From: Naegleria gruberi
Lineage: Eukaryota
Strand: one strand, 5' to 3'
Length of the DNA: 64,000 nucleotides
Assembly (NCBI GenBank): GCA_000004985.1
Contig: GG738909.1
The position numbers and the translations under genes are program-made. This document shows, piece by piece, positions 5,751-56,502 of the stretch. The notes under the pieces are model-generated. The model saw only the letters and a list, made by a program, of their open reading frames with translations. It searched no databases and had not been told where the DNA came from. How positions within the stretch are numbered: position 1 is the first letter of the stretch; each line of letters begins with the position of its first letter.

Positions 5751-8676
5751 TTAGATTTTAGTTGCAGCACCCTTATTCTTCAATTTCAAAACACAACAAG
5801 TTGTGATAATGATTGCAGAAACGACACCAATGACCAAGACAGAACCAACAATGGAAACTACAATGGCAATGATGGCTTCATTGCTCAATCCAGCTGATGA
5901 TCTTGGTTTGTTTTCCTTGATTAAATTGAGGTCGATAACTGAGAAGGATGTCAAGTGACTAGTTTTACATGTCATGGTAAAGACAAGTGTGTTTGAGTCA
6001 ACGTTTGATTTGACTAAAACTGTTTCAACACCATCATTCTTCCATTCGTTGAATTCAGTATTGAAATACATGCAAGTGTAATTAAATGGTTCCTTGCTGT
6101 CATAATTTGAGACAAGTACATCTTTAAAGTAAATGTCAATTGGTGTTGATAGTTCTTTAACTTTGAATGGAGAACCATCTGATTGAAGAATGGAAACAGT
6201 AACAATTGGACTGCTGATTGCTTTCTCAACTTGGGATGGATTCTCCTTTTCTTTATCTACTTCGTAGACAGAACTTACTAGGGTTAAATCGGTAGTTGGG
6301 GTATTTTGATTGGAATTGTTGAGTTGAGTATTAAAATTTGGAGGGAAGGTTACGGTAATAGTATCTGTCTTTTCAAAGACAACAACCTTGGCATCTAATT
6401 GTTCCAAATTTTTAACTGGTTCAGTTTTGAGTTCTCCACCAGAGGTAAGATTGTAATTGAATGATTCAATAAAGAATGGATCCAACTTTCTAACTCTTCT
6501 ATTTTCATAATCAGCAATAAATATCTGACCAGTGGTTGGTGAGATTGAGATTGTAGTTGGAGTGTTGATTGAGGCAAAGGTAGAAATTTGTCCATCTCCA
6601 TTCAAAGATGCAACTCCAGTACCAGCAATTGTTACAAGTTTACCATCAGAATTGATTTTTCTAATTCTATGATTATTAGTATCAACAATGAAGATTTCAC
6701 TACTGATTGGAGAAACTTCAACATCTATTGGCAAGTTCAATTGAGAGTTAGTGGCCAAAATGTTTTCCCCGGAATATCCTGCAACGCCAGTACCACAAAT
6801 AGTTTGAATGATACCATCAATGTTGATCTTTCTAATTCTATGGTTACTGGTGTCTGCAATGACAACCTCACCGTTTGGTAAAACAGAGACACCAGAAACG
6901 TTGAACAATTGAGCTTGAGTAGCCAATTGACCATCTCCTGAATAACCAGCAACGCCAGTTCCAGCAATAACAGTAGAAGAACCATCTTGTGAAATACGAA
7001 TGACTCTGTGAGTTTTTGGATCAGCAACATAAATCATTCCATTAAAGATAGCAATACCATGTGGTCTATCTGATGTTTTGGAACCAGTTACTGTAGAGAT
7101 GAGATTGTCCTTGATCTTTCTAATTCTGTTCATGTCAGAAATGAATAATTCACCTGATGAGAATTCGAGAGCTTTAGGATTGTTGAGGTAAGTACTCAGA
7201 GCAAGAACATTATCTTGATTGACTACATTTTCATAGGAACCACCAGCAAATGGTGTAATAATACCATCACTACCAATTCTTCTAACTGTATCTTCAGCAA
7301 TATCACTGATAAAAACTTCACCACTTGGTGAAACAGCAACACCTCTTGGTTGGAACAATTGACTCTCAGTGGCCAACTTGTTATTACCCAAATATTTAGG
7401 TTGTCCATTACCAGCAACACGTCTAATAAATCCACCAACGTCAACCTTGGAAACTGTGTAAAGATCAGCAAAGTAGACCTCACCATCAAAAGATGAAACA
7501 CCACCAGCAATAACAGGAGAATCAACACCTTGAACGCCAGCAGTACTTCCTCCCATAACACCATTACCAGCAATAGTATTAATGAAACCATTAGTACCAA
7601 CAACTCTGATTCTATTATTATTGGTGTCAGCAATGTAAAGTGTAGTAGTTTCAGCAAATTCAATATCAGTTGCTGAGATACCAGCCAAGATTGCCAAACC
7701 ACCATCTCCACTGAATTTGTCAGTGCTACCACCAACAACCAATTCAACAGTACCATTTTGATTAATCTTTTTAACACCAATACTGTCAACAAAGTAAAGT
7801 TCCTTTGTTTCAGGATTGATTGAAAGACCCATTGGAGATTCAACACCTACTGTTGTTGTTTCATTGTTGACTGGTACGCGATAGAGGGAACCAGCAATAA
7901 TAGAAACTAATCCAGTTTCGAATGAGTATGATTTGATCATGTGAGCAGCAGTGTCAGTAATGTACAATTGTTTTTCATCGTGAGAAAGTTTGACAGCTTT
8001 TGGAAAGTTAATTTTGGCTTCACTGGCAGGAACAGGAGAAACTTCATTCAAGTCAAAACCAAATTTACCACAACCAGCAATTGTTATAATAGTGCCGTTA
8101 GCAAAGATTTTTCTAATTCTGTGATTTTCAGTATCCTAGGTTGAAAATAGATGAAATTAAGAGATCTCACAATTAGAAAAAACTTACAGCAAAGTAAATA
8201 TCGTTAGTGGAAGAGAGTTCAACTTTTCCAGGATTGTTAATGTTAGCTTGAGTTGCCAATTGACCATCTCCAGAATATCCAATGATACCATTACCAGCAA
8301 TAGTGGTTGCTTTTCCTGTATTGATATCAATTTTTCTAATTCTGCTATTAATTCTGTCTGTTATTATTTTAATCAGTTATAGAGAATTCACATGAATTGT
8401 AAAACATGCAAAGGAATTTAAATATTCTAAATATTGAAAGATAAACTCACCTGAAACATAAACGTTTCCAGTTTTACGATCAACTTTAACTTTGGTTGGT
8501 GAGATTGAAACTTGTCCTGCATTCACATTATCATCAAATCCACCTCCTGCAATTGTACTAATCCTATAGAGAGGATCCAATTTTTGTTGTTGTGCATACA
8601 CTATTGATGAAGTTAACAGGGCAATTAGCAACAAGCTAATAATCAGCCACGAGGAATGAGATTGAGAGGCCATCAT
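5751..8676 (-). CDS. NHL-repeat (six-bladed beta-propeller) cell-surface protein with signal peptide and C-terminal TM anchor. Three exons: 8676..8451, 8357..8188, 8135..5751.
   Basis: Exon 1 ORF begins at the ATG at 8676 (MMASQSHSSWLIISLLLIALL, a signal peptide). Introns are GTGAGT...ACAG (8450..8358) and GTAAGT...CTAG (8187..8136). Phases check out: 226 + 170 nt = 396, then in frame into the 766-aa ORF. Repeated NHL-type units: ...YFAD/IADT.NHRIRKI..DG.I.TIAG.G..GY.GDGG.AT.A.L..P.GV. C-terminal TM: AIIAIVVSIVGSVLVIGVVSAIIITTCCV. Confidence 0.8.
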
Positions 8677-16924: not shown

Positions 16925-18184
16925 ATGTCCACCACTATTCACGATAATACAACACATGGAGAGCACTTAGAAGTTAAATCTCCACTGTTCATACAGCAGA
17001 ACACTTCAAAATCATCATCATCAACAACCTATTATAGTAGTTACGACCATGTACAAATACAAACAGTAGAAATGACCAAGGCAGAGAATGCGAAATTGTT
17101 TGGAAATGCAGTGGATTGGATATTGAATGCGATTGTGTTGCCAGTGCTCAATTGGACTAGTATTCCAATATTGATATTTTTCATATTGATGAGCAACTTT
17201 CAATTGATTGCTTTTGAATGGTTATTCGAATCTGAGGGAGATTTTTTCAATACTGTAGATTTTGATATCATTGCAACAATTGACAAGTATTTAATGTTTG
17301 GATTGGCAATGCCACACGAATTGTTGGCCAATTTGTATCATCCATTCTTGGATGTCTTCTTTGCCATTCCATATCTGGCTCACTTTGTCTATCCACTTGC
17401 AGTTTATCCAGTCATTGTTTGCATTTTCCTGTGGAAACCTAACAGAGAATCATTGAAAGAAACAGTCATCATACCAACCTATCAAATGCTTCGACGATTC
17501 ATCCCTGGAAAGAGTTCGACCAATGAATCTTCACTCAATGATGATATTGTTTCGTCCTACACTGGAAATTCAACCGATTCCTCCATCTCTCCAAAATATC
17601 AAGTTTCTAACTACAAACTCAAATGCTACTTACTCTCATTGGGTGTCATTTCAATCATTCAGGTTACATTATGTTTCTTCTTCCCAACAGCGCCACCTTG
17701 GTTCAGAGATAACACCATTAAATATGAAGAATACTATGAGATGATTGGTGATGCAACACTCGATATGCCACTTCCAGTCTTTCCACTCTATGCACCAGAG
17801 GCAAGATTTGAAATGGTTGATCGTTTAATTGGTTATGAATTATTTGCAGGAATTTATGGAAAGGGAACTATCAAGTTTGGAAGTTTCTACTCCCTTCATG
17901 TTGGTTGGACTGCCATTATTACCTTTATTGAACTATTTGTTGTTTATAAGCAAGAATCAAATGTTGATGAAGAAAGTTTGACAAGAAGTGAAAAGAGTGG
18001 AAAATCTTGGACTTTTTATCAAATATTCATGATTCAATATTTGGTTTGGATTTTCCTGGCGAGTATGTACTCTGCTCATCACTTTATGATTGATGGACTT
18101 GTGGCAGTCGTGCTGGCAGTTATTATTACAAAATTGTCAACCATGATTATTAAGAATGATTCAAAACCAAAAAAAGAAAATTAA
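16925..18184 (+). CDS. Multipass membrane protein of the PAP2 superfamily (Aur1/IPC-synthase or sphingomyelin-synthase-like)
   Basis: 419 aa with about 6 hydrophobic helices. Candidate PAP2 C2 and C3 motifs are SLHVGWT (S-x-H) and YSAHHFMIDGLVAVVLAV (H-x3-D). The exact family assignment is uncertain. The upstream small ORF 16689..16901 could be a 5' exon. Confidence 0.5.
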   Translation: MSTTIHDNTTHGEHLEVKSPLFIQQNTSKSSSSTTYYSSYDHVQIQTVEMTKAENAKLFGNAVDWILNAIVLPVLNWTSIPILIFFILMSNFQLIAFEWLFESEGDFFNTVDFDIIATIDKYLMFGLAMPHELLANLYHPFLDVFFAIPYLAHFVYPLAVYPVIVCIFLWKPNRESLKETVIIPTYQMLRRFIPGKSSTNESSLNDDIVSSYTGNSTDSSISPKYQVSNYKLKCYLLSLGVISIIQVTLCFFFPTAPPWFRDNTIKYEEYYEMIGDATLDMPLPVFPLYAPEARFEMVDRLIGYELFAGIYGKGTIKFGSFYSLHVGWTAIITFIELFVVYKQESNVDEESLTRSEKSGKSWTFYQIFMIQYLVWIFLASMYSAHHFMIDGLVAVVLAVIITKLSTMIIKNDSKPKKEN

Positions 18185-18499
18185 AAAAAAGAAATAAAAA
18201 AGTAAAAAAGAAATTTAACATAAAAATTGACAACTTTTTGGAGAGAATCCAAATTAAAAGTAATATTTTAATTGTAATAGTTGATTGTGCCAGTTACTCT
18301 ATTATTTGAAAATTGTATCATAAATGTTTTCGTCTGAAATGATTAATAGTTGGCAAGTAGCAACAGTCATGATGGACCAGTTCAATCAGAATCCAACGGT
18401 TTGGAATATTGGAAAGAATGTGAGAAGCAAACTAACAATTAAGGTGGTTGCATTGAAAAGTAAAACTTGAACTAGTGAAAAGAACTGGTGAAAAAACAA

Positions 18500-18511
18500 A
18501 TAAACAAAAAA
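18500..18511 (-). terminator. RNA polymerase III oligo-T terminator immediately 3' of 5S copy 1
   Basis: Minus strand reads ...GUAGUC-TTTTTGTTTATTTGTTTTTT (plus-strand A-runs at 18491-18511). Confidence 0.7.
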
Positions 18512-18629
18512 GACTACAGCACCACAGGTTCCCAAGTTGTCTCCAACCTCAGTACTGATGTGGCTCGACGATGCTTAACTTCTCAAATCGGACGGGATGA
18601 GGTGCATTCATCGTGATATGGCCGTAGCC
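18512..18629 (-). rRNA. 5S ribosomal RNA gene, copy 1 (about 118 nt)
   Basis: Reverse complement reads GGCUACGGCCAUAUCACGAUGAAUGCACCUCAUCCCGUCCGAUUUGAGAAGUUAAGCAUCGUCGAGCCACAUCAGUACUGAGGUUGGAGACAACUUGGGAACCUGUGGUGCUGUAGUC. It carries the universal 5S blocks ACGGCCAUA, CAUCCCGUxCGAU, AAGUUAAGC, AGUACU and GGUGCUGUA. Helix I closes between the 5' GGCUACGGC and the 3' GCUGUAGUC. The GGUUGGAGACAAC...GGGAAC block resembles dictyostelid 5S. Confidence 0.85.
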
Positions 18630-18738
18630 ATTCATAAACCTAAAATATGAAATATAAATGTATTATGATTATAAAAAGATTGAAAAAAATCAATTTCAGT
18701 GAATTACAACATTAGGGTAGTTCAATAACTTGAATTTA

Positions 18739-21285
18739 TTATTCAAGTACAATAACCATTGATTTCTGATCGTGATATTTCCACTTGATTGGATCTGTTT
18801 CGAGTGGAGGAAACATGATTCCAGTCTTATTGTAATTATATCCTCTTGAAATGGCAAGAAGGAAAAAGTCTCTGTTTTGCTTCAAGTGTTTCGGCAGCTC
18901 ATTCAAGTTGTTAGCATTGGCTCTCACTGCCAATTCAGCAATTTCCAAGTCCTCCTTCAAATGATCTGGGAAATGAACGTAACTGTTTGGATATTTAAGT
19001 AAGGTAGCTTTGGCAAGTTTGCTATTTAACTTGAATCTTGGTGGTAAATTGTTAATATCAACAAATGTTGGTGTTTCCATAATTGCCCTTTCTACAATTT
19101 CCTCATCAATGATACTCTGATCAATATTTTCAAAGCAAAGATATTTTGGACTCTCGTTTCTTAAATATTTACAGCATTCGATTGTGTATAAAACCATTTC
19201 TCTATCTTTTTGGAACTTTTCACTCATAACTAAAATTTTAGGGAAATTCCTGACTGCAATCTTGAACAATTCTGGATTGTTGTAGACCTTCTCGTCAAAC
19301 ATGAAAATATTAGTTCCAAACTCTATGGATTTCTTTATCCACTCAATATTTTTCATTACCTTATTATAAAACATTGGTATTACAGTCATGTCACATCCAG
19401 ATTCCACAATAATATTACAAATTTCGTTATTATCTTGAATTTCCTTTGAAAATCTCTGCAATTGATAAGGGAAAGCTTTCAAAGTCCTCTTGGCGAATTC
19501 AAGATTAGTAGTTAAAAAATCAGGTGTGCATTTTTTTCTCTCGATTTGCTTATTTTTTACAGTGTTGATTTCATCGTGTTTAATTTCCCAAGTGGTTTCA
19601 GATCTGAAATTTTTTCTGCAACTGTAAATAAATAATTGATCCAATACTGGAAAATATGGCGCAGCTTCGAGTATCAGTTCCATTTCGTTTTCCAACCATG
19701 TATTTCTGAAATTTTTACAAATTGTTGGATAAATTGGCACAATTTGCTTCATTAATTCGGTATCTTCTCTCAATTCTGTGTGAAGATGCTTGTACAGAGT
19801 AGGTTGATAAACTTCCTTATTCTTCAAATTTTGACATGCCAATTTGAATAAATTTGCCTGGACTTCAAGGGGAACAGTATTATCACATATTACACTTGTA
19901 AAGTTTTCACCAAGGAGTGATATTGCCGATTTACACAATTCAGGATGTTTTTCAAAGTGTCTCCATTCTATTGGAATATTTCCAAATGTTGATGGAGCTA
20001 ATTTGATAATTTCTGAAAAATCATTTTCAGTATAAGTATACTTTTGAGCTGATTTGATATTGTACTCTGCCATGAATTTCAAACCATCAGGAATAGTTTT
20101 AAAAACCCTTCCTAAAAATTCGTAATCTCTCTTATCTAGTACCTTATTTTCAATCACTCCATAACATGAAGTTTCGAATACTGGACCGTAAACTCTATCA
20201 TCGTTCGTAAGGAAAGCCTCCATAATCACATCCTTGTCTTGAATTAGAGATGGATGCAGAGTAATCTTTTCAAAATTTTGCAATTTCTTGTGCGTAGGCA
20301 TTTTGGATCCGTGATAGAAAATCTCTCTGAAATGGTTCAGGAAAAATATAACAAAATCCTTGTTTGATTTCAGATCTTCTGGTAAATTCTGGAAGGGGAT
20401 CAATGATAAACGAGCTAACAGGTAATAAATTGAATTATTCTTGATGGATGACAAGAATTTGGAAAGCCATTGATCCTTTGTCTTATCTACATATAATTTT
20501 TTCTTGACATTGTCAAATTCTGGATAATCGGTTGGACCATATTGATCTATTTCCTTTGGTCCCCGAGGGAATGTAATAGATTCCTCAATTCTTTCATAAA
20601 GTTGTGGAATAATCTCTCCTTGTGAAACTGACAATTCTAAAAGGTCTATTAACTCGTTCCAAATTCCATATTCTTTCTGAAAGAGATGGTACTCCGAATG
20701 GGATTGACGAAGGTGTGCTTTTTTCAAACTACGAGTATCGTACACTTTGAAATTTTGAATCACAATCGCAAGACACTTGTCAATATTCTTCAACAGCGAT
20801 TCTGGACAATCTTCCAAATTTTTCAAGTGAATTCTGCAATAATAATTCAAACAATCAGCCTTCAAGAATTTGAATTTTCCCAACAAGTAATGCACAACCG
20901 ACCTCATCAACTTGTCATCCGATGGCAACTCATTAAAATCATTCATTTCACGAATAGTTGAACTGTACTGTAATAGGTTAATCACCCTAAAGGCTTTATA
21001 CAAATTACTATTCACCACTCGGAAGTAAAATTGCTGATCGACAAGCATTGCCTCGAGCATTGTTTTTGGATCAAGAAAATCACTCACATAATCTTGAATT
21101 TCGGGTAACAAATTTCGGAATGGAAAAAAAAAGGATGATGAGGATGATGAATCGACAAGCATTGCCTCGTCCTGACTTGTTTCCTGATGATGATTCTTTG
21201 GTTCATCATGGAGTGTACCTGTTGTTGATGGTTCTTGCATTTTTTTTTGATGTTCTTTAGTGGTAGATTCATTGTAAAAGTTCAT
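18739..21285 (-). CDS. Hypothetical 848-aa protein with weak repeated DUF4116-like (F..D.E.VL.AV..N) motifs; no confident family
   Basis: Long uninterrupted ORF with typical coding composition. Recurring units include KDFVIFFLNHFREIFYH, ELFKIAVRNFPKILVMSEKFQKDREMVLYTIE and LKQNRDFFLLAISRGYN. The last about 17 codons (IKWKYHDQKSMVIVLE*) lie inside the duplicated 5S block. Confidence 0.6.
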   Translation of the reverse strand: MNFYNESTTKEHQKKMQEPSTTGTLHDEPKNHHQETSQDEAMLVDSSSSSSFFFPFRNLLPEIQDYVSDFLDPKTMLEAMLVDQQFYFRVVNSNLYKAFRVINLLQYSSTIREMNDFNELPSDDKLMRSVVHYLLGKFKFLKADCLNYYCRIHLKNLEDCPESLLKNIDKCLAIVIQNFKVYDTRSLKKAHLRQSHSEYHLFQKEYGIWNELIDLLELSVSQGEIIPQLYERIEESITFPRGPKEIDQYGPTDYPEFDNVKKKLYVDKTKDQWLSKFLSSIKNNSIYYLLARLSLIPFQNLPEDLKSNKDFVIFFLNHFREIFYHGSKMPTHKKLQNFEKITLHPSLIQDKDVIMEAFLTNDDRVYGPVFETSCYGVIENKVLDKRDYEFLGRVFKTIPDGLKFMAEYNIKSAQKYTYTENDFSEIIKLAPSTFGNIPIEWRHFEKHPELCKSAISLLGENFTSVICDNTVPLEVQANLFKLACQNLKNKEVYQPTLYKHLHTELREDTELMKQIVPIYPTICKNFRNTWLENEMELILEAAPYFPVLDQLFIYSCRKNFRSETTWEIKHDEINTVKNKQIERKKCTPDFLTTNLEFAKRTLKAFPYQLQRFSKEIQDNNEICNIIVESGCDMTVIPMFYNKVMKNIEWIKKSIEFGTNIFMFDEKVYNNPELFKIAVRNFPKILVMSEKFQKDREMVLYTIECCKYLRNESPKYLCFENIDQSIIDEEIVERAIMETPTFVDINNLPPRFKLNSKLAKATLLKYPNSYVHFPDHLKEDLEIAELAVRANANNLNELPKHLKQNRDFFLLAISRGYNYNKTGIMFPPLETDPIKWKYHDQKSMVIVLE

Positions 21286-21522
21286 ACTTCATTGAATTTG
21301 CATTACCTGACACATTACAGTGTTGCCTAGAGTGATATCTCTACAGCAGGAATACTCTCAAATTTAAAATTCCTTAGATCTCTCTATGAATCCACTGGTG
21401 GCAATAATCTCTAACAGAATCAAAAAAATGATAAATTTATCAAGATTGATTTCTTTTTATTTTACAACAATAAATATTACAAAATATGATACAAAAACTC
21501 TTCTGAAAAACAAGCAGAAAAA

Positions 21523-21765
21523 TTAATCACGCTTTGGCTTTTCTGGAAGAATTGGTGCCCAATCGAATGACATTGGATCACGAACATCAATTGGTCTATG
21601 GAATGTAACCATTTCTGCTTCATTATTTGGAGTTGTACTTGGAATTCCAAAGTAGGTTTTGCACATTTGAGTGAAAATATAGGATCCAGCAGCAACGGTA
21701 GTGAAAATAGTCAATTGCTTGAAAGGTTTCTTGGCTTGAAGGTAGTGGAAGTTAATGGTGGACAT
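21523..21765 (-). CDS. NDUFA4/COXFA4-like small respiratory-chain subunit (80 aa)
   Basis: MSTINFHYLQAKKPFKQLTIFTTVAAGSYIFTQMCKTYFGIPSTTP... resembles NDUFA4 (..[36 protein letters not shown]..): QAKK, one TM helix, short basic tail. Confidence 0.55.
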   Translation of the reverse strand: MSTINFHYLQAKKPFKQLTIFTTVAAGSYIFTQMCKTYFGIPSTTPNNEAEMVTFHRPIDVRDPMSFDWAPILPEKPKRD

Positions 21766-22136
21766 GATGTTAGAGATTAATTCGGTTAGTTGATTTTTTT
21801 CTGTTTGGTTTTATTCGAAATGCTGGTTTTTGAGGTTTTCATGATCAAGAACCTTGTTATCGACATGAACTGTTTGGAGAAATGATTCTTCTTTCATGGT
21901 TTTTTTGATTTTTTGAGTGACGTTTGTTTGTGATCTCTGTTTTACAATGAAAAGATTCTTAATACAAAATATGATTCTTTTGAATGTTGAAAAACCTATT
22001 GCATGACAATTTTATTCTTCAGATTAAATACCATTCTTAAATGATCCTTTTCAATAACAATAATTTCTTCTATTTATTGAAAAAAACTAAATTTTGGAGT
22101 TCGCTCCAGAAATAAAGGATTTTATTGTTTCATGGT

Positions 22137-22392
22137 AAAAAAGACTACAGCACCACAGGTTCCCAAGTTGTCTCCAACCTCAGTACTGATGTGGCTCGAC
22201 GATGCTTAACTTCTCAAATCGGACGGGATGAGGTGCATTCATCGTGATATGGCCGTAGCCATTCATAAACCTAAAATATGAAATATATATGTATTCACCT
22301 CATCAAAGACGCAAGAATTGTTCGTGTAGTTCAATAACTTAAATTTATTCAAGCACAATAATCATTGATTTCTGATAGTGATATTGCCACTT
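22137..22392. repeat. Copy 2 of a roughly 290-bp duplicated block (copy 1 at 18505..18790). It holds the 5S gene plus about 160 bp of 5' flank, including a fragment homologous to the last 16 codons of gene 18739..21285.
   Basis: Near-identity over 18505-18645 versus 22137-22277 and 18721-18790 versus 22328-22392. The segment between them has diverged. Copy 2 retains the frame IKWQYHYQKSMIIVLE* versus IKWKYHDQKSMVIVLE* in copy 1. Confidence 0.8.
22143..22260 (-). rRNA. 5S ribosomal RNA gene, copy 2; sequence identical or near-identical to copy 1
   Basis: Same 118-nt sequence as 18512..18629 on the minus strand. Followed on the minus strand by a T6 run (plus 22137-22142 AAAAAA). Confidence 0.85.
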
Positions 22393-22804
22393 GATTGTTA
22401 GAACCATATCTCCCTTGATAGACAACATGAGCTGATTATTTACAACAATGGATGGGACACATTCCTATTCAATCACATCAAATGTTATATGTTCAAAACC
22501 ATCCATCAATCCAATTTTCCATCTCTTCATCTCTCTTAAAACCAACTCATCAAAATATTTTTTTAAATTTCGTATCACCACGGAATTCCCGCCTTCTTGT
22601 TCAGTTAAGGTTGCTATTGTCTGCTTATTCGCACCAACAAAAGAAAATAAAACAACAACAATAATAGTGTATCATCTATTAATATAACAATAAAAACACG
22701 GGAGGCATCCATCGTGTAATAATACATTGAGTATAGGTCTTTGGAAAAATTCAGTGAGAGGTTGAGAAAAAACAAATTCGTAAATAATAACGACTAGAAA
22801 AAAA

Positions 22805-25800
22805 ATGCAAAGTCTTAGCCCTACGGGAGGTTCAAGTGTAGATATTAAAAAGTTAGCCTCTGTAGGATCATCGGCCTCTTTGATATCTGCGAGAGGACAT
22901 CAGGAGAGTGCCATGTCTTCGGTTTCTGGAAGTAAGGACTGGTCTAATTTGTCAGTCTTTTCATCATTTATCAATAATTCGACTTTTCCAATTGAGGATT
23001 TACATAATGTTGCACAAGCTTTAAAGCCTCCGGAAAAGACGATTCCATCCTCTTCGCAAAAGGGACCAACAATATTTCCTAAATATCAAAAGAAGATTTT
23101 GATTAAATTTAAGGGAAGAACTTTCATCGATATTCCTTACTATCCTTACGTGAATGATGATGCGGAAACAGAATCAACAACATCAAAATCACCAGGACCA
23201 AACCAAAAGAAGAAACCTTCATCAGCATCAGGAAAACGACCTGGATCTTCTAATAGTACTAAAAAGGGAGCAAATAATTCTGCCATTTCTACAGAGAGTA
23301 ATACAACTACCAATGATGATGGTTCAATTCAAAAATTGTGGGAACACAGAGTGGTTTATTTTGTAGCAAGTAATTATGGAGGAAGTACAGGTTTTGTGGA
23401 ACTACATCAAACACTAATTGACTCACAAGAGTATAACATCGAGAAGGAACATACCATCTACATGGAAACCTTACAAGATTTAGTTTATTTCGAATCTTGC
23501 CCATTTGTATCATTTGTAATTAGAAGAGAATTTGATCCTGCCACACCTCCAACAACTGTAGAAAAGAAAAAGTCTTCTAAAAAGGAAGCAACTCCATCAA
23601 ATGCTGGAAATAAGAAAGATAATACACCTCCTGCACCAGGTCTTCCAGCAACAAATACCACAAAAAAGGTACAGAATAATATTGGTTCAGCAAATCAAAT
23701 ACCTTTGGAAGAACTACAGGAAGGAATGATTGCTGATATTAAGGCAGCTTTTGGAAGTCATTGCGAGATTCTCCATTCTTACAGAGCTTCGACAATTCCA
23801 CTATTTGTAAATGACAAGTTTGGCTATACAAAATGCAAATATGAATTTGTTTATAGTCCAAAGTACAAATATTGGTCTTCATTGTTAGACACTAAGAGCG
23901 AAACAGCCTCGAATGGTTTTGATGAGTCATTTAAATCAGAAGGTATTTCATCTGCAAGATTCAGTGTCAATGCCTTGTCATTTACGCCACCACAAGATTA
24001 TAGTGAATTTATGCACAATATTAATATTAGGTTTGAGGTAGCTGAAGGAGCAAGCATTCTCTCGGAAGATGTTCAAAACAAACTCAATCCAATGATGGTT
24101 TCAATTTCTTCACTGAAGGATCTCCCAAATGAAAGCTACCTATCTGATAGATGTAAGCCTGTTTCTGTATCGTATTCCATCAGAGGTAAAACTTTCAAAA
24201 CAAAGGGCTATCACCATGATTCACTGATTAATCTTGGCTATCAAAGGATTATTTATCTGGGAAATTCAAATGAGATGGAAATGTACAGAGATTATTTTAT
24301 CAGAATGCCAATAGTTTTCGAGACACACGACAGAGACCCTAAGGATGGTATCGCCAAGTTCTTTGGTAAATCAGAGGTAGCTCTTAAAACGTTAATTTTA
24401 AACTCTAGGGGAAGAGATATTTCAGACAATTTCCAAATTCAAGGCTACACAATACTACCAGACGAATACGAGAAGGCTGTAAAAAGAATTGAAGAGGAAA
24501 AGAAAAAGGCTCAAACTCAAGAAGAGGAAAAGAAGGCCAAACCGAACACAAAATCTCCAAAGAATTTGAATATGAAGAGTCCGTCTGTTGAATCTCCAAA
24601 GAATTCTCTCAATGATTCTGTATTTACTGTAGAGTATTCCATATTTGAGGGAAAATATGTCGAAAAGAAGAGTTCGATAAAGATTCAACTCAGATTTAAT
24701 ACACCATTCCCACAATTTACAGAGACTGAGAAGAGTACATATCCAATCATTTTAACCTTTGATTGGGAGAATGCCAATCTAATTCAAAAAACAGAACAAA
24801 TATTTAATCAATTTTTCATTAAGCCAATGCCAGCAAAGAGTCGATCAGATTTGTTTGGTGGCATGCCAAATTCAGGAACTATGAATGGTGGAGGAGCAAA
24901 TCTTTCTCCAGTCAATCAATTTAATACTCTGTCATTATCTCCAGAATCGGCTTCCTCAGACATGACTCCAGGAGGAAAGAATTCAGGAAAGGATGTTTTC
25001 AAACACTTTTGTGGATTTGAAATTTGCGATGGTAAGAAACGTTTAATGGTTATTGAGGCCACCTCAAAAGATGCCTTCAGGTACCTTACAGGGCATTTAG
25101 AAAAATACATATCCAAAGAAAATCAACCTGTAAATATAATGTATGACCCAACCTATTTCTATTCGAATAGACTCTATGAACAGCTTGTGCTTGGACCTAA
25201 ATCAGATAGGGCAGAAGATAAAAAGCCAGCTGGAAGGAGATCATCTGTTCAAATTGAGATTGATCAAAAGAAGCCAATCATTAGATTGAGACTCCAAGAT
25301 ACATTTGAAAATATCCTCTCCACAAAAGATATGTACATTAAGAACAAAAAGTCAGAGGATGTCAAGATACTATCAGCATTATCCAAATTGAATCACATCT
25401 TTATGGTGGACACTATTAATCAAGTGATTGAAAACAGTCTCCTTCCAGATTCCTCCCTCTTGATGAATATTAAGGAGAGACATTGTGATGACGGCCTAAT
25501 TGAAATTGATTCAATTATTGCTAATAACCAAAAGAAGAGACAAGAAGAAGAACAAATGCACACCAAACATATGAAGGACAAGGCAACAGAGGAGTTGTAC
25601 AAATCACCTCAAACTGTTGAAGATTTGGCTCTTCACTTGGGAGAGGAAATTGGTTTCGAGGGTATTCCACTCATTGAAACACCTCAACATTTACCTCCTC
25701 CAGAGAAGGTCTTATTTGAAGGGGAAGAGAAGAGAAAGAAGAATAGAATCAAGAACTGGAAGACAAATCCTTCAGGATTCTCTCTGGATGAAGTATCTGC

Positions 25801-26557
25801 ACCAGAGAAGAAATACTGGCTTTATATTCCTCATTTGAAAGGACATCTCATTGCCTCCTTCCCACCAATGGCAAAAGAACTTCCACCATACAATTTGCAC
25901 AGCTATATGACTGGTGTGTTGGTTCGTTCTGATAGAAAACATCCACCTCCAAAAATCAGAGCCTACACAGCTTTTGGAAGTCCTGGAACAAAGAATAGAA
26001 AACCTGAAATTACCATATCTCCGGATACAATATATTGCATTTTAGTTTCATCATGGACTCAAAGAGCTAGCACTCGAGTTGATAATCAACTTGATTCAAA
26101 GATTAGACAATCTCTCAAGAGAGCAGTTGGTTCACCAGGAAAGAACTACATTAGAGGAAATTTTTCCACAGTTAGAGAGCTATCCCAACAATCCTCCATG
26201 TATAAACAGCAAGAAGAAGTGGAAAGATCAAGCAAAAAATTCATTACAGTTCCAACCTATCCAGACCAGCGAAAGCAAACAGAAAAGTCAATCGAATACA
26301 GAAATACAGCACCTCCAACCAACAAGCCAACCTGGGTTAAAAGAGGTAAAACCTCTTCCGTGGAGGACAATAGACATCCAAAGAAACCAGATCAAGCCAG
26401 AATTGATGAACTCAACATGATTGACCTCTTTGACAAAACCCTAGAATCACACCGAGAAAACAAGAGCACACTCTTCTCCCCAAGAGGAGTAGCTCAAGAA
26501 GTAGTACCACCACCCAATCCACCAAACCTCTCCATCAAACTCCCTAAGCTTAAATAA
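22805..26557 (+). CDS. Hypothetical large protein (1250 aa), S/N/K-rich, no recognisable domain
   Basis: Single long ORF with coding-like composition. Mixed low-complexity and globular segments. No motif I can place. Confidence 0.6.
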   Translation: MQSLSPTGGSSVDIKKLASVGSSASLISARGHQESAMSSVSGSKDWSNLSVFSSFINNSTFPIEDLHNVAQALKPPEKTIPSSSQKGPTIFPKYQKKILIKFKGRTFIDIPYYPYVNDDAETESTTSKSPGPNQKKKPSSASGKRPGSSNSTKKGANNSAISTESNTTTNDDGSIQKLWEHRVVYFVASNYGGSTGFVELHQTLIDSQEYNIEKEHTIYMETLQDLVYFESCPFVSFVIRREFDPATPPTTVEKKKSSKKEATPSNAGNKKDNTPPAPGLPATNTTKKVQNNIGSANQIPLEELQEGMIADIKAAFGSHCEILHSYRASTIPLFVNDKFGYTKCKYEFVYSPKYKYWSSLLDTKSETASNGFDESFKSEGISSARFSVNALSFTPPQDYSEFMHNINIRFEVAEGASILSEDVQNKLNPMMVSISSLKDLPNESYLSDRCKPVSVSYSIRGKTFKTKGYHHDSLINLGYQRIIYLGNSNEMEMYRDYFIRMPIVFETHDRDPKDGIAKFFGKSEVALKTLILNSRGRDISDNFQIQGYTILPDEYEKAVKRIEEEKKKAQTQEEEKKAKPNTKSPKNLNMKSPSVESPKNSLNDSVFTVEYSIFEGKYVEKKSSIKIQLRFNTPFPQFTETEKSTYPIILTFDWENANLIQKTEQIFNQFFIKPMPAKSRSDLFGGMPNSGTMNGGGANLSPVNQFNTLSLSPESASSDMTPGGKNSGKDVFKHFCGFEICDGKKRLMVIEATSKDAFRYLTGHLEKYISKENQPVNIMYDPTYFYSNRLYEQLVLGPKSDRAEDKKPAGRRSSVQIEIDQKKPIIRLRLQDTFENILSTKDMYIKNKKSEDVKILSALSKLNHIFMVDTINQVIENSLLPDSSLLMNIKERHCDDGLIEIDSIIANNQKKRQEEEQMHTKHMKDKATEELYKSPQTVEDLALHLGEEIGFEGIPLIETPQHLPPPEKVLFEGEEKRKKNRIKNWKTNPSGFSLDEVSAPEKKYWLYIPHLKGHLIASFPPMAKELPPYNLHSYMTGVLVRSDRKHPPPKIRAYTAFGSPGTKNRKPEITISPDTIYCILVSSWTQRASTRVDNQLDSKIRQSLKRAVGSPGKNYIRGNFSTVRELSQQSSMYKQQEEVERSSKKFITVPTYPDQRKQTEKSIEYRNTAPPTNKPTWVKRGKTSSVEDNRHPKKPDQARIDELNMIDLFDKTLESHRENKSTLFSPRGVAQEVVPPPNPPNLSIKLPKLK

Positions 26558-26612
26558 AAAACAATTTTTAAATTAAATTTTGTGATTTCAAATATTTTTT
26601 TAAAATTAAAAA

Positions 26613-28309
26613 ATGAACGACAAGACACTTGTGGGCAAACTCGACAAGTTAACCAACACACAACAATCTATTCAAGGTTTGTATTGGTGATGATAGCATG
26701 ATGATTCGAGCAAGAACGGAATGATTTATATATTTATAAAATGTATCAACAACAATATGTTTTTATGATAAATGATCAAATTGGTTGAAAATATAATGAT
26801 GAATAATGATGACAATAACAATAATTTGTGTTGGAATTTTGTACGGAATGTATTCATGTGATTACACTTGATCCAAAATATCATGTAATGAACACTTGTT
26901 TGAACAACAACAAATTAGCCTTGTCACTTTGGGTTATTTACCACGTCAAGAAGGCTCAAGAAATTGTTTCCATTTGGGCTAGAGAAGCTAAGAAGGCAGC
27001 ACCAAATAGAAAATTATGCTATTACTACTTGGCCAATGATGTTATTCAAAATTCGAGAAAAAAGACCAATGCTTTTGTTGAACAATTTCAAGCAGTGCTA
27101 CCAGGATCACTCCGAGATAACATCTCACTCATGACAGAGAAGGATCGTAAGTCCTTGCAACGTATTTTCAGTATTTTGGAGGAGAGAAAGATTTTCACAG
27201 CTGATTTTTCGAGTGAGTGCAAGAGTGTTATTGATGGATCGCTTGGAGGTTCATCATCTAATACTTCCTCTGATAATTCTCGTAGTAGTGGTAGTGGTAA
27301 AGAAAGATCATCCGAGTCAAATCCTCTTAAGAGAGAAAGACCAAGCAGTAGTAATACTTCGTCATCTTCCAATGATGCCTTGACATTACTTGCCAACACA
27401 AATTCTGTTGTTAAAAGTCTTGTACAATTCAATGAAATTGTTCAAGCTAATCGTGTCGATCAAAAAAATTTCACAGATAATGATAAACTTGTTCAAGAAT
27501 GTAAACAACGAGTATTGGATAGACATGAATTGAGAGAAGATCAATTGGGTAAGTACATTTGTGGAAATGTGGATATATTTCTGTACTTTGAAAAATCAAA
27601 AACTAACTCGATAATTTTCAAATTAAATTTTCATTCATCCATTAATATATTTTCATTATTTAATCACATTCATTAATAATTTAGCTCATTCAACACCTTT
27701 CACATTAAAACAATTACAAGGTGATGTTGAAGGAGTGCTCACAAAATGCTCTGATTATAAATTTGCGCTTGCAAAGGAAAATAACAAACGAAAGGAATAT
27801 ATGACAGCACTAGAACAAGAATTGAACGAACAGAGAAACTTGTTTAATCAGTATAATGACTTGATTAAAGTATGTAGAACATGCAATGTTTTTAAAACTA
27901 ATCTCTTAAAACCTTACTTAAGGAATGGAATGATAATTACCTTGTCGATTTGCAAAAAATCTCAACCTCTCTCGAAATTCATCTCAATAGCAAACAATTC
28001 AATGGTAATGATGACGATGTATTGACGGGAGGTAATCAAGATGATGGCGATATTGTTGTTCCAACTTATTCTGATGACTTTTTCAAAGTGGATGAAGATG
28101 AGGTAGAGCCATCAAATAAAAAGTTGAAAACAGAACCAAGTTATGACGAAGATAATGAAGATTTATTCACTGAAACTAAGCCTATTTCTACAACCAATAC
28201 ACTCAATTTGGTTAACTCTATATTGAGTGCATTAGGAAACAAGAATACCAGTGGTTCTCACCAACCATCAGAGGAGTATGAACCTAATGAATATCCACCA
28301 TTCGATTAA
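26613..28309 (+). CDS. Rtt103/RPRD1-like CID (RPR) domain protein, C-terminal-domain-interacting type. Four exons: 26613..26676, 26919..27548, 27721..27869, 27923..28309.
   Basis: Exon 1 is MNDKTLVGKLDKLTNTQQSIQ, then a GTTTGT...TTAG intron. Exon 2 begins ALSLWVIYHVKKAQEIVSIWAREAKKAAPNRKLCYYYLANDVIQNSRKKTNAFVEQFQ. It is collinear with human RPRD1B (QSVQTLSLWIIHH...LNLLYLANDVIQNSKRKGPEF). Introns GTAAGT...ACAAG and GTATGT...TTAAG join the downstream ORFs in phase. Total length is 1230 nt, 410 codons. Confidence 0.8.
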
Positions 28310-28368: not shown

Positions 28369-31300
28369 TTATTTCTTTTTGGAAGGATTTGTGTGAACTG
28401 AACGTTCATGTCTTCTCAAGTTGGAACAAGTAGTAAATGTCTTTCCACAACCTTCAACATTGCAAACGTATGGTCGTTCTCCTGTGTGAATTCTCATGTG
28501 AGTTTGTAAATCAGAACGACGAACAAACTTCTTGTTACATCCCTCAAATGTGCAAGTGTAAGGTTTGTTGCCAGAGTGAAGTCTCAAGTGGCGTTTAAGA
28601 TTGGCAAATTGGGCAAACTCCTTTCCACAAGCATCACATACATATTCACCTTTTGAGTTTTTGGTAGCATTCTCCTTTGTAACTCCTTTAGACAATCCTA
28701 CTTCATCATCATCGTCATCATCCAACTCAGCCAACTCGTCTTCAAGTGTTGAAGAGCTATTGACAAAGTGATTAATAGACATGGTCTCATTACTACTAGA
28801 ATCAATATTCAACCTTAACAGGTGAGTTCTTGTTGTTGTGGTTGCTGTACTTGGTGTTGATTGACCTTGTGAAGATATGGATGGTGAGTAATTTGGTGGA
28901 TTAAGCAAACTAGTATTCATGGCATTGGTAATGTTAGTAGCCAACAATTGTCTTGGACTTGTTGGTGCATTATATTGTGGCTGTTGTTGTTGCTGTTGTT
29001 CGAGCAATGCATTAGAGTGATAGGATAAATCCAATTGTTGTTGTGGTTGTTGATTGAACTGCATGTTTTGTGGAATATTTTGTTGAAGATTTTGCATGTT
29101 TTGCATCTTGAATCCATTGTTGTTAATGACATTATAGTTCATATTACCATTTTGAATATAGTTTGGTGTTTGCAAAATATTTTGTTGTTGAGGGTAGAAA
29201 TTAAGCTGCATTTGTTGGAGAGTATTATTATTGACATATTGGTTATTGAACTGTTGATTATTAAATTGATTTGTGACTGGATTTTGAAATTGATTAAAAT
29301 TGATGAATTGTTGTTGATTGTTTTGATTGTTTTGATTGTTTTGACTGTTTTGATTTACAAAAATGGTATGAGATTGAGGAATTTGGACATTAGTATTGTT
29401 AATTATTGGCTGTTGTTGAACTTGTTGGAGTTGTTGTGGATTGGTGAGGAGTTGAGTATAGCTTTCATCTTCGTTGGTAAGAGAAAGATTGCTCAAACTT
29501 CTATCAATATTCATAGTGTAATCATCTTGTTGATTGGAAACGATTGGAACGTTGGCAGGTTGAGAAAATTGTTGTTGGACTGTTGGCTGCTGTGTAAATT
29601 GTTGGAATTGCATTTGATTAAACAGAGCATTTTGCTGATAAAGATTTTGCTCTTGTTGTGATACTTGACTGTTTTGACCATTATTCGAAATGACAGAATT
29701 CCTCTTGAATACTTTTCCAAAAAATCCAAAAAGTTTGTTCTTGCCATTCGACTTTTCATCTTCACCTTGTTGAACTGGTGACTGTCTATTGTTTTGTTGG
29801 GAAAATTGTTGAAGATTATGGAAAGTTTGTAAATGTGGATTGTTCATATTGTTAGCTACATTCATAGATCTCTGTAACTGGTTATTGTTATATGGTACAT
29901 TTGTGGTGGAATTGATAAGATCATGAGAATTGAATTGTTCAAGGTTAGGTTGTTGCTGAGCTGCTTGATTGTGTTGTTGTTGAATAATTTGATTCATGTA
30001 AAGATGAGGACTCATTGGATAATCTTTCTGTTTCTTTTCTACGACATAATTGTCTCTTGGTTTTCTCTTTCTTTTGGTACCATGATCTTCCTCTTGTTCT
30101 ACCTCACGTGCTGAATATTCCGAATAACTAGATGATGTAATTTCAGATTCTTCAAATGAGCGAGAATAAGAGTTGTTGTTCTCTCTCAATAATTGTTGAA
30201 GTTGAGAAATTTGTTGGGCATTAACAGCATGTGGATCAGTGAGAGGGCTTGGTGATATTAAACTTCCAGTTGAAAATCTTCTTGAATCATTGGAATACTT
30301 GGTACCAAAATTTTCCTCTCTTGGTAAACTAGGTTCAATAATATCTAGCCCACCTCCTTCTTCAATATTATTCAAAATTGATCCACCAAATGAGGGAGTT
30401 ATCATCGATCCAAGAGAGAAGCGATGTCTTAAATTTGGAGTGAAACAATCGTTTTGTGTATCATCTGCACTGCTACCGTATGTGTATGCCATTGAGTTTT
30501 TCATTGGAGTGTGACTACTATTATTATTTTCCAAACTATTATTAATATTTAAGAATTTAGATTCTTTTCCAATTGGTTTTCCTTTTTCAGATGTATTATC
30601 TTGTTCGGTTGGAGGTGGTTTAACAATATTAATCAAAGGTTCAGGTTGTACTGTTTTTTGCTCTTTAGTTATCATTATTGGAATTGTTGGTTTTTCCTGA
30701 ACAGGAAGAGGTGGCTGATCATAGGAATCAATTCCTGGAAGCTTTTGATCATCTGCATTCATGTCCTCTTTGATTCTCTGGTATAGAGAAATACTATTAT
30801 TAAAGAGTAATTCACTAGAGTCGCCTGCTGTGAGGAGACATTTTGAGGTTCCAGACAATCTCAACTCTTGATTTTCTCCAAAACTATAACTCGAAGCATG
30901 CAACAATGATCCAAAGTTTGATAAATTTCCACTACTAGCATCCATACGATTGTAACTACTTCCTGGTTTGAGATTGGAGTCACCACTCTCACCAAAATGA
31001 TTTGGAATTAAAATATTACTCAATGATGGTGTATTCATGCTGCTCACTACTTCATCATCGTCATCATCTATGGTCGAACCACTTGGCACTGAAGTTGACA
31101 ACTTTTTTTGACGGTTAATATTGAGATAAATATTGTCAGAATCAGAAAATTCCATTGGTGAAGGTAAATTTGCTCCAATAGTCATTAACTGTAAAAAAGA
31201 TTGTCAAAATGATAGACGAAAGATCAATACTTACTGGTGTGCTCAGAAATTTTCTAGTCAATGCAAAAATTCCAGTTGCAATTAATGATGACCTAACATC

Positions 31301-56100: not shown

Positions 56101-56502
56101 TATTACAGATTCAACATCAAGTTGCCAATCGTTCCACACAAGTTTGTTGAACCATTGGTCATCCAAGGTGCTGAAAACTTCTTTAAACAATGGCACGCAA
56201 TTGGAAAGGAACAAGAAGTCCAAAAGATTTTCCCATGCACTCCTGTATATTCTGATGTAAATGCCTGTGCTAAGGTTTTGTCTGAAGGTTTCCGTTTGGC
56301 CATTTTGACTGGTATTGACAATCCAAGTAATATTGTTGCTGCTGGTTCTTTCTTCTATGATCCTGTTGGTAAGGTTAACGTTTTATTACGTCTTGAATAC
56401 AATGCTCCAAAGCAAGCTTACAGATTAACTGTCAAGGCTCAAGATGCCACTATTGCTCAACAAGTTTTCAATTACATCTTACAAGAACTCACCTCCCAAT
56501 AA
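53105..56502 (+). CDS. ap2a1: AP-2 complex subunit alpha (alpha-adaptin). Two exons: 53105..53150 and 53495..56502.
   Basis: Exon 1 is MDMRGLSVFISDIRK, followed by donor GTTAGT, a 344-nt intron and acceptor TTAACAG|. Exon 2 begins STTKEEEQSKVEKELAKIRGKFKNGGALKGYDRKKYICKLLYIYMLGYEIEFGHIEAVNLL, collinear with human AP2A ([55 protein letters not shown]). HEAT/ARM trunk, G/Q/P-rich hinge, C-terminal appendage. Confidence 0.85.

What the first reader, a model, noticed from the sequence alone, without database searches (positions are those of the whole stretch)
18490..22400. Two dispersed 5S rRNA genes embedded in a duplicated ~290-bp block that also carries the 3' end of a protein-coding gene
Identical 118-nt 5S genes (minus strand) at 18512..18629 and 22143..22260, each followed by a T-run Pol III terminator. 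About 160 bp of conserved 5' flank is duplicated with them. In copy 1 this flank supplies the last about 16 codons and the stop of gene 18739..21285. Copy 2 retains a cognate but orphan ORF fragment (IKWQYHYQKSMIIVLE*). In Dictyostelium discoideum 5S is encoded on the extrachromosomal rDNA palindrome. Chromosomal, dispersed 5S copies next to Pol II genes suggest a different organisation. They also suggest 5S-associated segmental duplication or a 5S-derived mobile unit. The conserved upstream flank may hold Pol III upstream promoter elements.
Basis: partly seen in the sequence, partly recalled or inferred. Interest (0 to 1): 0.55.

Follow-up and report, generated by a model that had tools for sequence, protein, structure and literature searches.

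The report
Two known Naegleria 5S genes, locally duplicated
These are two ordinary, already catalogued chromosomal 5S ribosomal RNA genes of the amoeba Naegleria gruberi; one was copied about 3.6 kb away in a short DNA duplication that also carried the tail end of a neighbouring protein gene.

Summary
Rfam calls two identical full-length 5S rRNA genes on the minus strand, at 18511-18629 and 22142-22260 (105 bits each). Each ends in a T6 run.

The shared flank is not one continuous block:
- A proximal 35 nt is 34/35 identical and has a TATA-like box at -29.
- A spacer (50 vs 28 nt) cannot be aligned.
- A distal 77/74-nt block is 92% identical. In copy 1 it is the last 16 codons, the stop and about 24 nt of 3'UTR of an 848-aa DUF4116 gene. 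In copy 2 it is an orphan.

The organism is Naegleria gruberi, not a dictyostelid. A 2012 paper (PMC3369914) lists 279 putative 5S genes in this genome. They include scaffold_65 50510 and 54141, spaced 3631 bp like our pair.

The gene's C-terminal tail also aligns with its N. fowleri homologue and a N. gruberi paralogue. The block therefore began as coding sequence, and copy 2 is the derived copy. I found no target-site duplication, no poly(A), and no further copy in the window. The N. fowleri locus holding that homologue has no 5S gene.

Verdict: a small local DNA duplication within a known dispersed 5S family. I see no mobile element and no new kind of organisation. Interest is low.

The parts
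18511..18629 (-). 5S rRNA gene, copy 1 (119 nt)
   Evidence: Rfam RF00001, 105.4 bits, full model. The Box A consensus matches at +50..+64. Box C matches with 2 mismatches at +80..+97.
18506..18511 (-). T6 run, the putative Pol III terminator of copy 1. Its first T is the last base of the Rfam match.
   Evidence: Sequence. The similarity between the two copies stops exactly here.
18630..18664 (-). Proximal upstream region of copy 1 (35 nt, 34/35 identical to copy 2). It carries the TATA-like TTTATATTT at -29..-21 (18650-18658).
   Evidence: A TATA box upstream of N. gruberi 5S genes was reported in PMC3369914.
18665..18714 (-). Spacer of copy 1 (50 nt), not homologous to the spacer of copy 2
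18715..18791 (-). Distal duplicated block, copy 1. It holds the last 16 codons (IKWKYHDQKSMVIVLE), the stop codon and about 24 nt of 3'UTR of the DUF4116 gene.
   Evidence: (family D5)
18739..21285 (-). 848-aa DUF4116 protein gene. Its 3' end lies 109 nt upstream of 5S copy 1, on the same strand.
   Evidence: ORF. Pfam DUF4116, E 1e-22. Homologues: N. fowleri FDP41_007355 at 37% identity, and N. gruberi paralogue NAEGRDRAFT_68823. Both have an alignable C-terminal tail.
22142..22260 (-). 5S rRNA gene, copy 2 (119 nt), identical to copy 1
   Evidence: Rfam RF00001, 105.4 bits
22137..22142 (-). T6 run, the putative Pol III terminator of copy 2
22261..22295 (-). Proximal upstream region of copy 2, with the TATA-like TATATATTT at 22281-22289
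22296..22323 (-). Spacer of copy 2 (28 nt), unrelated to the spacer of copy 1
22324..22397 (-). Distal duplicated block, copy 2. It is an orphan copy of the DUF4116 gene's 3' end: 68/74 identical with a 3-nt deletion at the tandem stop codons. Within the 16 codons there are 3 non-synonymous changes and 1 synonymous change.
   Evidence: Only a 27-aa ORF (22345-22428, minus strand) lies here. There is no room for a gene before the divergent 1250-aa gene that starts at 22805.

Best explanation
The window is nuclear DNA of Naegleria gruberi, about scaffold_65:32001-96000 of the JGI assembly. The two features are intact 5S rRNA genes with the hallmarks of Pol III transcription. Each has internal Box A and Box C-like elements, a TATA-like box at about -29 and a T6 terminator.

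They belong to an already tabulated family of about 264-279 chromosomal copies. These are scattered among protein genes, often in loose pairs 1-5 kb apart. The 18S/5.8S/28S genes sit on a separate extrachromosomal circle.

The pair arose by a short local DNA-level duplication of about 290 bp. The copied segment ran from inside the last 50 nt of the DUF4116 coding sequence, through its 3'UTR and the 5S promoter and gene, to the Pol III terminator. The copy landed 3.6 kb away in the same orientation, in the intergenic region upstream of the 1250-aa gene.

In copy 2 the gene fragment has no function and is drifting: 8% divergence, a 3:1 ratio of non-synonymous to synonymous changes, and one indel. 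The 5S gene itself stays identical under purifying selection. The AT-rich spacer between them was later changed by an indel or replacement.

What is shown:
- the 5S identity and the species;
- that these loci were already catalogued;
- the extent of the similarity;
- that the distal block began as coding sequence.

What is inferred:
- a single duplication event;
- its direction, from copy 1 to copy 2;
- the later change to the spacer;
- that both copies are expressed.
For: - **5S calls:**
- **Promoter and terminator elements:**, plus PMC3369914.
- **Species:**
  - The AP-2 alpha ORF is 100% identical to a N. gruberi protein and 87% identical to N. lovaniensis.
  - Table S1 of PMC3369914 lists scaffold_65 50510-50626 and 54141-54257. 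Their spacing is 3631 bp, the only adjacent gap of that size and equal to ours.
- **Family structure:**
  - 264 full-length copies on 113 scaffolds.
  - 39 adjacent gaps below 10 kb, with a minimum of 1104 bp.
  - 73 of 264 copies have a neighbour within 10 kb, against about 12% expected at random.
- **Ribosomal DNA circle:** it carries only 5.8S, 18S and 28S (PMC5805870).
- **Bipartite homology with sharp ends:**
- **Direction:**
  - The tail TDPIKWKYHDQKSMVIVLE aligns with the tails of the N. fowleri homologue (DDYVKWEIFSDSSSEIVVRLV) and a N. gruberi paralogue. The block is therefore native to the gene.
  - Copy 2 has only a 27-aa orphan ORF.
- **Lineage:** there is no 5S within 10 kb of the N. 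fowleri homologue's locus. That fits a gain in the N. gruberi lineage.
- **Selection on the gene:** a related environmental Naegleria 5S (L008) differs at 1 nt but has unrelated flanks. Selection alone can therefore keep the gene identical.
Against: - The spacer between the two homologous segments cannot be aligned (50 vs 28 nt). Both neighbouring segments are 92-97% identical. A single clean duplication needs a second event to explain this.
- I could not read the other roughly 260 N. gruberi 5S loci. The proximal 35 nt, or even the distal block, could be shared more widely than this pair.
- Expression of either copy was not tested.
- The mapping to scaffold_65 rests on spacing and one protein identity, not on a direct sequence comparison.
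Confidence: 0.75

Rival explanations
1. The whole unit (5S + DUF4116 gene + intergenic DNA, about 3.6 kb) was duplicated in tandem. Nearly all of the second gene copy was then deleted. Only its last 50 coding nt, its 3'UTR and its 5S gene remain.
For: - The copies are direct repeats 3631 bp apart.
- The repeat period covers exactly one 5S plus one gene plus the intergenic DNA.
- Loose direct pairs are common in this genome.
Against: - There is no trace of further homology upstream of 22397 (score 19 against shuffles of 20.7 +/- 2.5).
- That position is occupied 408 bp later by the divergent 1250-aa gene. In a N. gruberi-like environmental contig, that gene's product is annotated with Pfam PF28302.
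- The model needs a precise deletion of about 3.3 kb, so two large events instead of one small one.
Confidence: 0.12
2. The distal block, the proximal block, or both form a functional or mobile 5S-associated module that is shared by many 5S loci. This could be an upstream Pol III control element or a 5S-carrying transposable unit. The DUF4116 gene would merely overlap one copy of it.
For: - The block keeps 92% identity while the adjacent spacer is unrecognisable. That could mean it is under constraint.
- The 5S family is large and dispersed.
Against: - The block's coding part is homologous to the C-termini of the N. fowleri homologue and a N. gruberi paralogue. No 5S lies within 10 kb of the N. 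fowleri gene. The paralogue's locus could not be read.
- Changes in copy 2 look neutral: 3 non-synonymous, 1 synonymous, and one indel.
- There is no target-site duplication, no terminal repeats and no poly(A).
- The block has no special RNA fold (z = -1.1 and -0.8).
- The window holds no other copy.
- The Naegleria-like 5S locus L008 shares neither block.
Confidence: 0.05
3. Copy 2 is a retrocopy. It would be a 5'-truncated reverse transcript of a DUF4116 mRNA that read through the downstream 5S gene.
For: - 5S copy 1 lies only 109 nt downstream of the stop codon on the same strand, so read-through is conceivable.
- The copy is truncated at its 5' end inside the coding region.
- Its 3' end coincides with a transcript-end signal.
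Against: - There is no poly(A) or A-rich tail after the T-run...TTTTTTACCATGAAAC.
- There is no target-site duplication of 5 nt or more.
- A Pol II transcript has no reason to end at a Pol III T-run.
- The spacer is not collinear between the copies.
Confidence: 0.03
4. The second copy is an assembly artefact, a local mis-assembly of the same sequence.
For: The 5S gene and 35 nt upstream are almost identical in the two copies.
Against: - The distal block differs at 6 positions plus an indel.
- The spacers differ in both length and sequence.
- All outer flanks are unique and encode different genes.
- An independent environmental contig (L001, 98.6% identical) supports the assembly to the right of copy 2, from 22582 onwards.
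Confidence: 0.01

Closest known systems
The chromosomal 5S rRNA gene family of Naegleria gruberi (PMC3369914, Table S1: 279 BLAST hits; entries R33432 and R33431 on scaffold_65)
   Same: - These appear to be the same two loci: the spacing of 3631 bp is identical.
- The gene length is about the same (117-119 nt).
- The TATA box, internal control region and T-run are as that paper describes.
   Different: - That paper gives only coordinates and summarises the arrangement as 'tandem'. Its own table shows dispersed copies and loose pairs.
- It does not describe shared flanks.
- The co-duplicated gene fragment is a detail added here.
Dispersed 5S rRNA genes that evolve by birth-and-death. Examples are Neurospora crassa and other filamentous fungi, and Schizosaccharomyces pombe. 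This comparison rests on my own knowledge (Selker et al. 1981; Rooney & Ward 2005). The birth-and-death literature for 5S also appeared.
   Same: - Many solitary copies lie among Pol II genes.
- The genes are near-identical but the flanks are unrelated.
- New copies arise by small duplications.
- Each copy has an upstream TATA-like element plus an internal promoter.
   Different: - This is a different eukaryotic supergroup (Heterolobosea).
- Here a just-recognisable duplication event is caught, with a piece of the neighbouring gene attached.
5S genes on the Dictyostelium discoideum extrachromosomal rDNA palindrome
   Same: Both organisms keep their large rRNA genes on an extrachromosomal element.
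   Different: - In Naegleria the element is a roughly 14-kb circle with 18S, 5.8S and 28S only (PMC5805870). The 5S genes are chromosomal.
5S-derived retroelements: SINE3 and other 5S-SINEs (own knowledge), and Cassandra TRIMs (bioRxiv 10.1101/2023.07.14.548913)
   Same: A 5S sequence is found at new genomic sites together with non-5S sequence.
   Different: - There is no LINE-like or A-rich tail, no LTRs and no target-site duplication.
- The 5S is full-length and intact.
- The extra sequence lies upstream and comes from the adjacent gene.

Membership tests
Eukaryotic 5S rRNA gene (Rfam RF00001, Pol III type 1 gene) | The sequence and secondary structure match the 5S covariance model above the gathering score, over the full length. 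| tested here: met
   105.4 bits against a gathering score of 38, model positions 1-120, for both copies.
Eukaryotic 5S rRNA gene (Rfam RF00001, Pol III type 1 gene) | Internal control region: Box A, intermediate element and Box C. | tested here: inconclusive
   - The Box A consensus quoted in PMC3369914 matches once, at +50..+64.
- Box C matches with 2 mismatches at +80..+97.
- The intermediate-element pattern is too degenerate to be informative.
- PMC3369914 reports an internal control region for N. gruberi.
Eukaryotic 5S rRNA gene (Rfam RF00001, Pol III type 1 gene) | A run of 4 or more T directly after the gene, acting as the Pol III terminator. | tested here: met
   Both copies have a T6 run at the 3' end, counting the gene's last base.
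Eukaryotic 5S rRNA gene (Rfam RF00001, Pol III type 1 gene) | The gene is transcribed and its product is built into ribosomes. | not testable with these tools
   No expression data are available. The copies are identical, so reads could be assigned only through their flanks.
Dispersed chromosomal 5S family of N. gruberi (PMC3369914) | The locus appears in the published list for the JGI Naegr1 assembly. | tested here: met
   - scaffold_65 entries 50510-50626 and 54141-54257 are 3631 bp apart. That gap is unique among the 151 adjacent gaps and equals ours.
- No direct sequence comparison with the scaffold was possible.
Tandem 5S rDNA array | Many head-to-tail units of uniform length, with only a non-transcribed spacer between genes. 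| tested here: not met
   There are only 2 copies in 64 kb. An 848-aa gene and an 80-aa ORF lie between them. Homology is limited to about 240 nt.
5S linked to the large rDNA unit (Dictyostelium palindrome, Saccharomyces) | The 5S gene lies next to 18S/5.8S/28S genes on the same element. | tested here: not met
   The window has no SSU, LSU or 5.8S hit, even at E up to 1. The Naegleria rDNA circle carries 5.8S, 18S and 28S only (PMC5805870).
Retroposed 5S / 5S-derived SINE | An A-rich or LINE-derived 3' tail, with target-site duplications. | tested here: not met
   There is no A-run after the T-run. The longest direct repeat in the 40-nt flanks on either side of copy 2 is 4 nt.
Retroposed 5S / 5S-derived SINE | The 5' limit of the copy lies at the transcription start. 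| tested here: not met
   Homology extends 35 nt upstream, and a further 74-77-nt block lies beyond the spacer.

The most novel reading that the evidence does not exclude
This pair may be a caught-in-the-act example of the general way 5S genes multiply in Naegleria. In that reading, short-range, DNA-templated copy-and-paste moves a unit of about 0.2-0.3 kb (promoter, gene and terminator) that sometimes drags adjacent sequence along. This would explain why 28% of copies have a neighbour within 10 kb, against about 12% expected at random. Shared flank fragments could then be used to reconstruct the genealogy of all roughly 264 copies. They could also be used to ask how 5S dosage is matched to the thousands of copies of the extrachromosomal rDNA circle reported for Naegleria.
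Probability: 0.3. Interest if true: 0.35.

Novelty: already known. Interest (0 to 1): 0.12.

Why it matters
It matters little on its own. The result corrects the taxonomic frame: this is Naegleria, not Dictyostelium. It also shows that both loci were already in a published table.

Three minor points may be useful:
- The 2012 paper's summary of a 'tandem' arrangement is contradicted by its own coordinates. These show dispersed copies and loose pairs.
- Statements in the rDNA-circle literature that all Naegleria ribosomal DNA is extrachromosomal overlook the roughly 264 chromosomal 5S genes.
- The orphan gene fragment is a clean marker of the direction and approximate age (about 6-8% divergence) of one 5S gene birth. 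A genome-wide analysis could exploit such markers.

Tried and rejected
**Searches that led nowhere**
- Exact-protein look-ups of the 848-aa, 419-aa and 80-aa window ORFs, and of the N. gruberi proteins P0003 and P0124, found nothing on record. I therefore could not fetch other N. gruberi loci.
- The search for homologous proteins with the 848-aa ORF returned nothing.
- A chimeric query of the 419-aa and 1250-aa ORFs returned only one environmental protein. No loci orthologous to the genes right next to the 5S copies could be obtained that way.
- The AP-2 alpha loci of N. lovaniensis (L002) and Willaertia magna (L003) contain no 5S gene and show little synteny.
- The metagenome scan with a 26-nt 5S core gave 14 loci. 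Only L008 is Naegleria-like, and its flanks are unrelated. The rest belong to other organisms.
- Scans of bacterial/archaeal genomes and of viral contigs gave 0 hits.
- The metagenome homologue locus L020 has no 5S gene.

**Ideas tested and rejected**
- Extended homology beyond the block: a 28-nt stretch in the MAFFT alignment looked suggestive, but it is not above shuffles.
- A structured RNA in the distal block: it folds no better than shuffles.
- Target-site duplication or poly(A): none found.
- A templated origin of either spacer from elsewhere in the window: no second copy exists.
Full report
**Observation**

Rfam (RF00001) calls two full-length 5S rRNA genes on the minus strand, at 18511-18629 and 22142-22260. 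Each scores 105.4 bits against a gathering score of 38. A relaxed search (E up to 1) adds nothing else in the 64 kb, and ARAGORN finds no tRNA. The two genes are identical. Each ends in a T6 run, after which similarity stops abruptly.

The shared 5' flank is real but comes in two parts:
- 35 nt directly upstream are 34/35 identical. Together with the gene and T-run they form a 159-nt repeat, 18506-18664 = 22137-22295.
- A spacer follows that cannot be aligned: 50 nt in copy 1 and 28 nt in copy 2.
- A distal block follows, 18715-18791 against 22324-22397. It has 68/74 identities plus a 3-nt indel at a tandem stop codon.

Probes from the proximal and distal segments hit only these two places, with zero expected by chance. 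Local alignments of the sequence beyond either end score no better than shuffles.

The distal block of copy 1 is the last 16 codons, the stop and about 24 nt of 3'UTR of the 848-aa ORF 18739-21285(-). That ORF carries a Pfam DUF4116 domain (E 1e-22). Copy 2 has only a 27-aa orphan ORF ending in IKWQYHYQKSMIIVLE. The divergent 1250-aa gene starts 408 bp further on, so there is no room for a paralogue.

**Which organism**

GC content is about 34%. The genes include PAS-cyclase, NHL-repeat and DUF4116 proteins. The AP-2 alpha ORF (53611-56502) is 100% identical over the part of the query it covers (59%) to a Naegleria gruberi predicted protein on a 250-kb contig. It is 87% identical to N. lovaniensis and 76% to Willaertia magna. 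The window is therefore N. gruberi (Heterolobosea), not a dictyostelid.

**What is already known**

PMC3369914 (PLoS One 2012) searched the JGI N. gruberi assembly with BLASTn and reported 279 putative 5S genes. It found them not linked to rDNA units, and described an internal control region, an upstream TATA box and T-run terminators.

Its Table S1 lists scaffold_65 50510-50626 (R33432) and 54141-54257 (R33431). Their spacing is 3631 bp, exactly that of our copies, and it is the only such gap in the table. The window therefore corresponds to roughly scaffold_65:32001-96000, and both loci were already catalogued.

I parsed the table:
- There are 264 near-full-length copies on 113 scaffolds.
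- The minimum spacing is 1104 bp and the median adjacent gap is 33 kb.
- 39 adjacent gaps are below 10 kb.
- 73 of 264 copies have a neighbour within 10 kb. About 12% would be expected for random placement in a 41-Mb genome.

The family is therefore dispersed with loose local pairs, not tandem in the classical sense, although the paper's Table 1 scores it as 'tandem'. The Naegleria 18S/5.8S/28S genes lie on a roughly 14-kb extrachromosomal circle (PMC5805870).

**Origin and direction of the duplication**

An exhaustive profile search with the 848-aa protein found no self-match. The ORF seems to be missing from public proteomes. It did find three homologues:
- N. fowleri FDP41_007355, 37% identical and aligned to residue 846 of 848.
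- A protein from a JGI metagenome.
- The N. gruberi paralogue NAEGRDRAFT_68823.

In the alignment, the C-terminal tail TDPIKWKYHDQKSMVIVLE pairs with DDYVKWEIFSDSSSEIVVRLV in N. fowleri and TDPFEWKV...IKIEH in the paralogue. The tail is therefore ancestral coding sequence of this gene family, not something supplied by a 5S-associated element. It follows that the copy-2 block is a derived fragment of this gene. It is not a fragment of the paralogue, whose tail differs.

Its changes relative to the gene look neutral: K>Q, D>Y, V>I, one synonymous change, one 3'UTR change and one indel.

The N. fowleri locus holding that homologue (L018, VFQX01000003.1) and a second assembly of it (L019) share a Myb gene and the SLC52 transporter with the window. 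Neither has a 5S gene within 10 kb on either side. The metagenome homologue locus L020 has none either. The 5S genes at this locus are therefore a gain in the N. gruberi lineage, or less likely a loss elsewhere.

**Mechanism**

The simplest account is one short DNA-level duplication of about 290 bp. It spans the gene's last 50 coding nt, its 3'UTR, the spacer, the 5S promoter, the 5S gene and the terminator. The copy was inserted 3.6 kb away in direct orientation.

The putatively neutral positions are the distal block and the proximal 35 nt. They differ at 7 of 109 aligned sites, or about 6%. This is compatible with a single age. The 5S gene itself is held identical by selection. An environmental Naegleria-like 5S (L008) differs at only 1 nt while its flanks are entirely unrelated.

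The mismatch between the spacers needs a second event. That could be an indel or replacement, or a conversion tract from a third 5S locus. This remains unexplained, and neither spacer has another copy in the window.

Transposition or retroposition is not supported:
- The longest direct repeat in the 40-nt flanks on either side of copy 2 is 4 nt.
- There is no A-tail after the T-run.
- There are no terminal repeats.
- The distal block has no special fold.

An assembly artefact is excluded by the diverged block, the different spacers and the unique flanks. An independent environmental contig, 98.6% identical, supports the assembly from 22582 onwards.

A tandem duplication of the whole 3.6-kb unit followed by deletion cannot be excluded, but it needs more events.

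**Promoter reading**

The Box A consensus matches once at +50..+64, and Box C matches with two mismatches at +80..+97. A TATA-like TTTATATTT (TATATATTT in copy 2) lies at -29..-21. This is consistent with PMC3369914. Only this proximal segment is a candidate upstream Pol III element. The distal block is not.

**Limits**

I could not read the other roughly 260 N. gruberi 5S loci. Whether the proximal 35 nt is family-wide, and whether other close pairs share flanks, therefore remains open.

**Verdict**

This is an ordinary birth event in a known dispersed 5S family. Interest is low.

Noticed in passing
window 18739-21285(-), 22805-26557(+), 16925-18184(+): Three long intact ORFs have no exact or close self-match in the protein collections, although other N. 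gruberi proteins are present there. They are the 848-aa DUF4116 ORF, a 1250-aa ORF and a 419-aa PAP2-like ORF. They are probably unannotated or mis-modelled in the public N. gruberi annotation.
   Followed up: partly
L001 (ENA ERZ929261, contig k127_415157) against window 22582-26709: An environmental metagenome contig is 98.6% identical in DNA to the window, and its protein is 99% identical to the 1250-aa gene (annotated PF28302 there). A N. gruberi-like strain is therefore present in that sample.
   Followed up: partly
L004-L007, L009-L013, L015, L016 (contigs VFQM010.../VFQO010...): Eleven metagenome contigs carry a different 5S gene, 77-85% identical over most of the gene (L012 holds only the first half). 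Each sits in unrelated flanks. This looks like another protist with dispersed, solitary 5S genes that shares the same loop-C motif.
   Followed up: no
PMC3369914, Table 1 against Table S1: The paper scores N. gruberi 5S genes as 'tandemly arranged'. Its own coordinates show copies on 113 scaffolds, a minimum spacing of 1104 bp and a median adjacent gap of 33 kb. That is dispersed copies with loose pairs.
   Followed up: yes
window 28369-31185(-): A 938-aa protein has three C-terminal C2H2 fingers, one of which hits the Pfam TFIIIA_zf-C2H2 model (33 bits, cut-off 27). PMC3369914 reported no TFIIIA in N. gruberi. With so few fingers it is unlikely to be TFIIIA, but I did not examine it.
   Followed up: no
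window 6573-8302(-) and 37327-37893(+): Diverged internal repeats (families D1, D3, D6 and inverted pair I2) lie within two large ORFs. They look like repeat domains of paralogous proteins.
   Followed up: no
window 55453-55594(+): Two 67-nt direct repeats, 87% identical and 75 nt apart, lie inside the AP-2 alpha adaptin gene between its N-terminal and C-terminal domains. This region may be why the public gene model covers only 59% of the ORF.
   Followed up: no
L018 (N. fowleri VFQX01000003.1:61024-83543) against the window: The homologous DUF4116 gene, a Myb gene and the SLC52 transporter are neighbours in both species. Their immediate flanks are rearranged, and the N. fowleri locus has no 5S gene.
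   Followed up: yes
Literature on the Naegleria rDNA circle (PMC10112140, PMC10586121): These papers state that all Naegleria ribosomal DNA is extrachromosomal. The roughly 264 chromosomal 5S genes are an unmentioned exception. They also raise a dosage question, given the roughly 4000 circles per cell those papers report.
   Followed up: no
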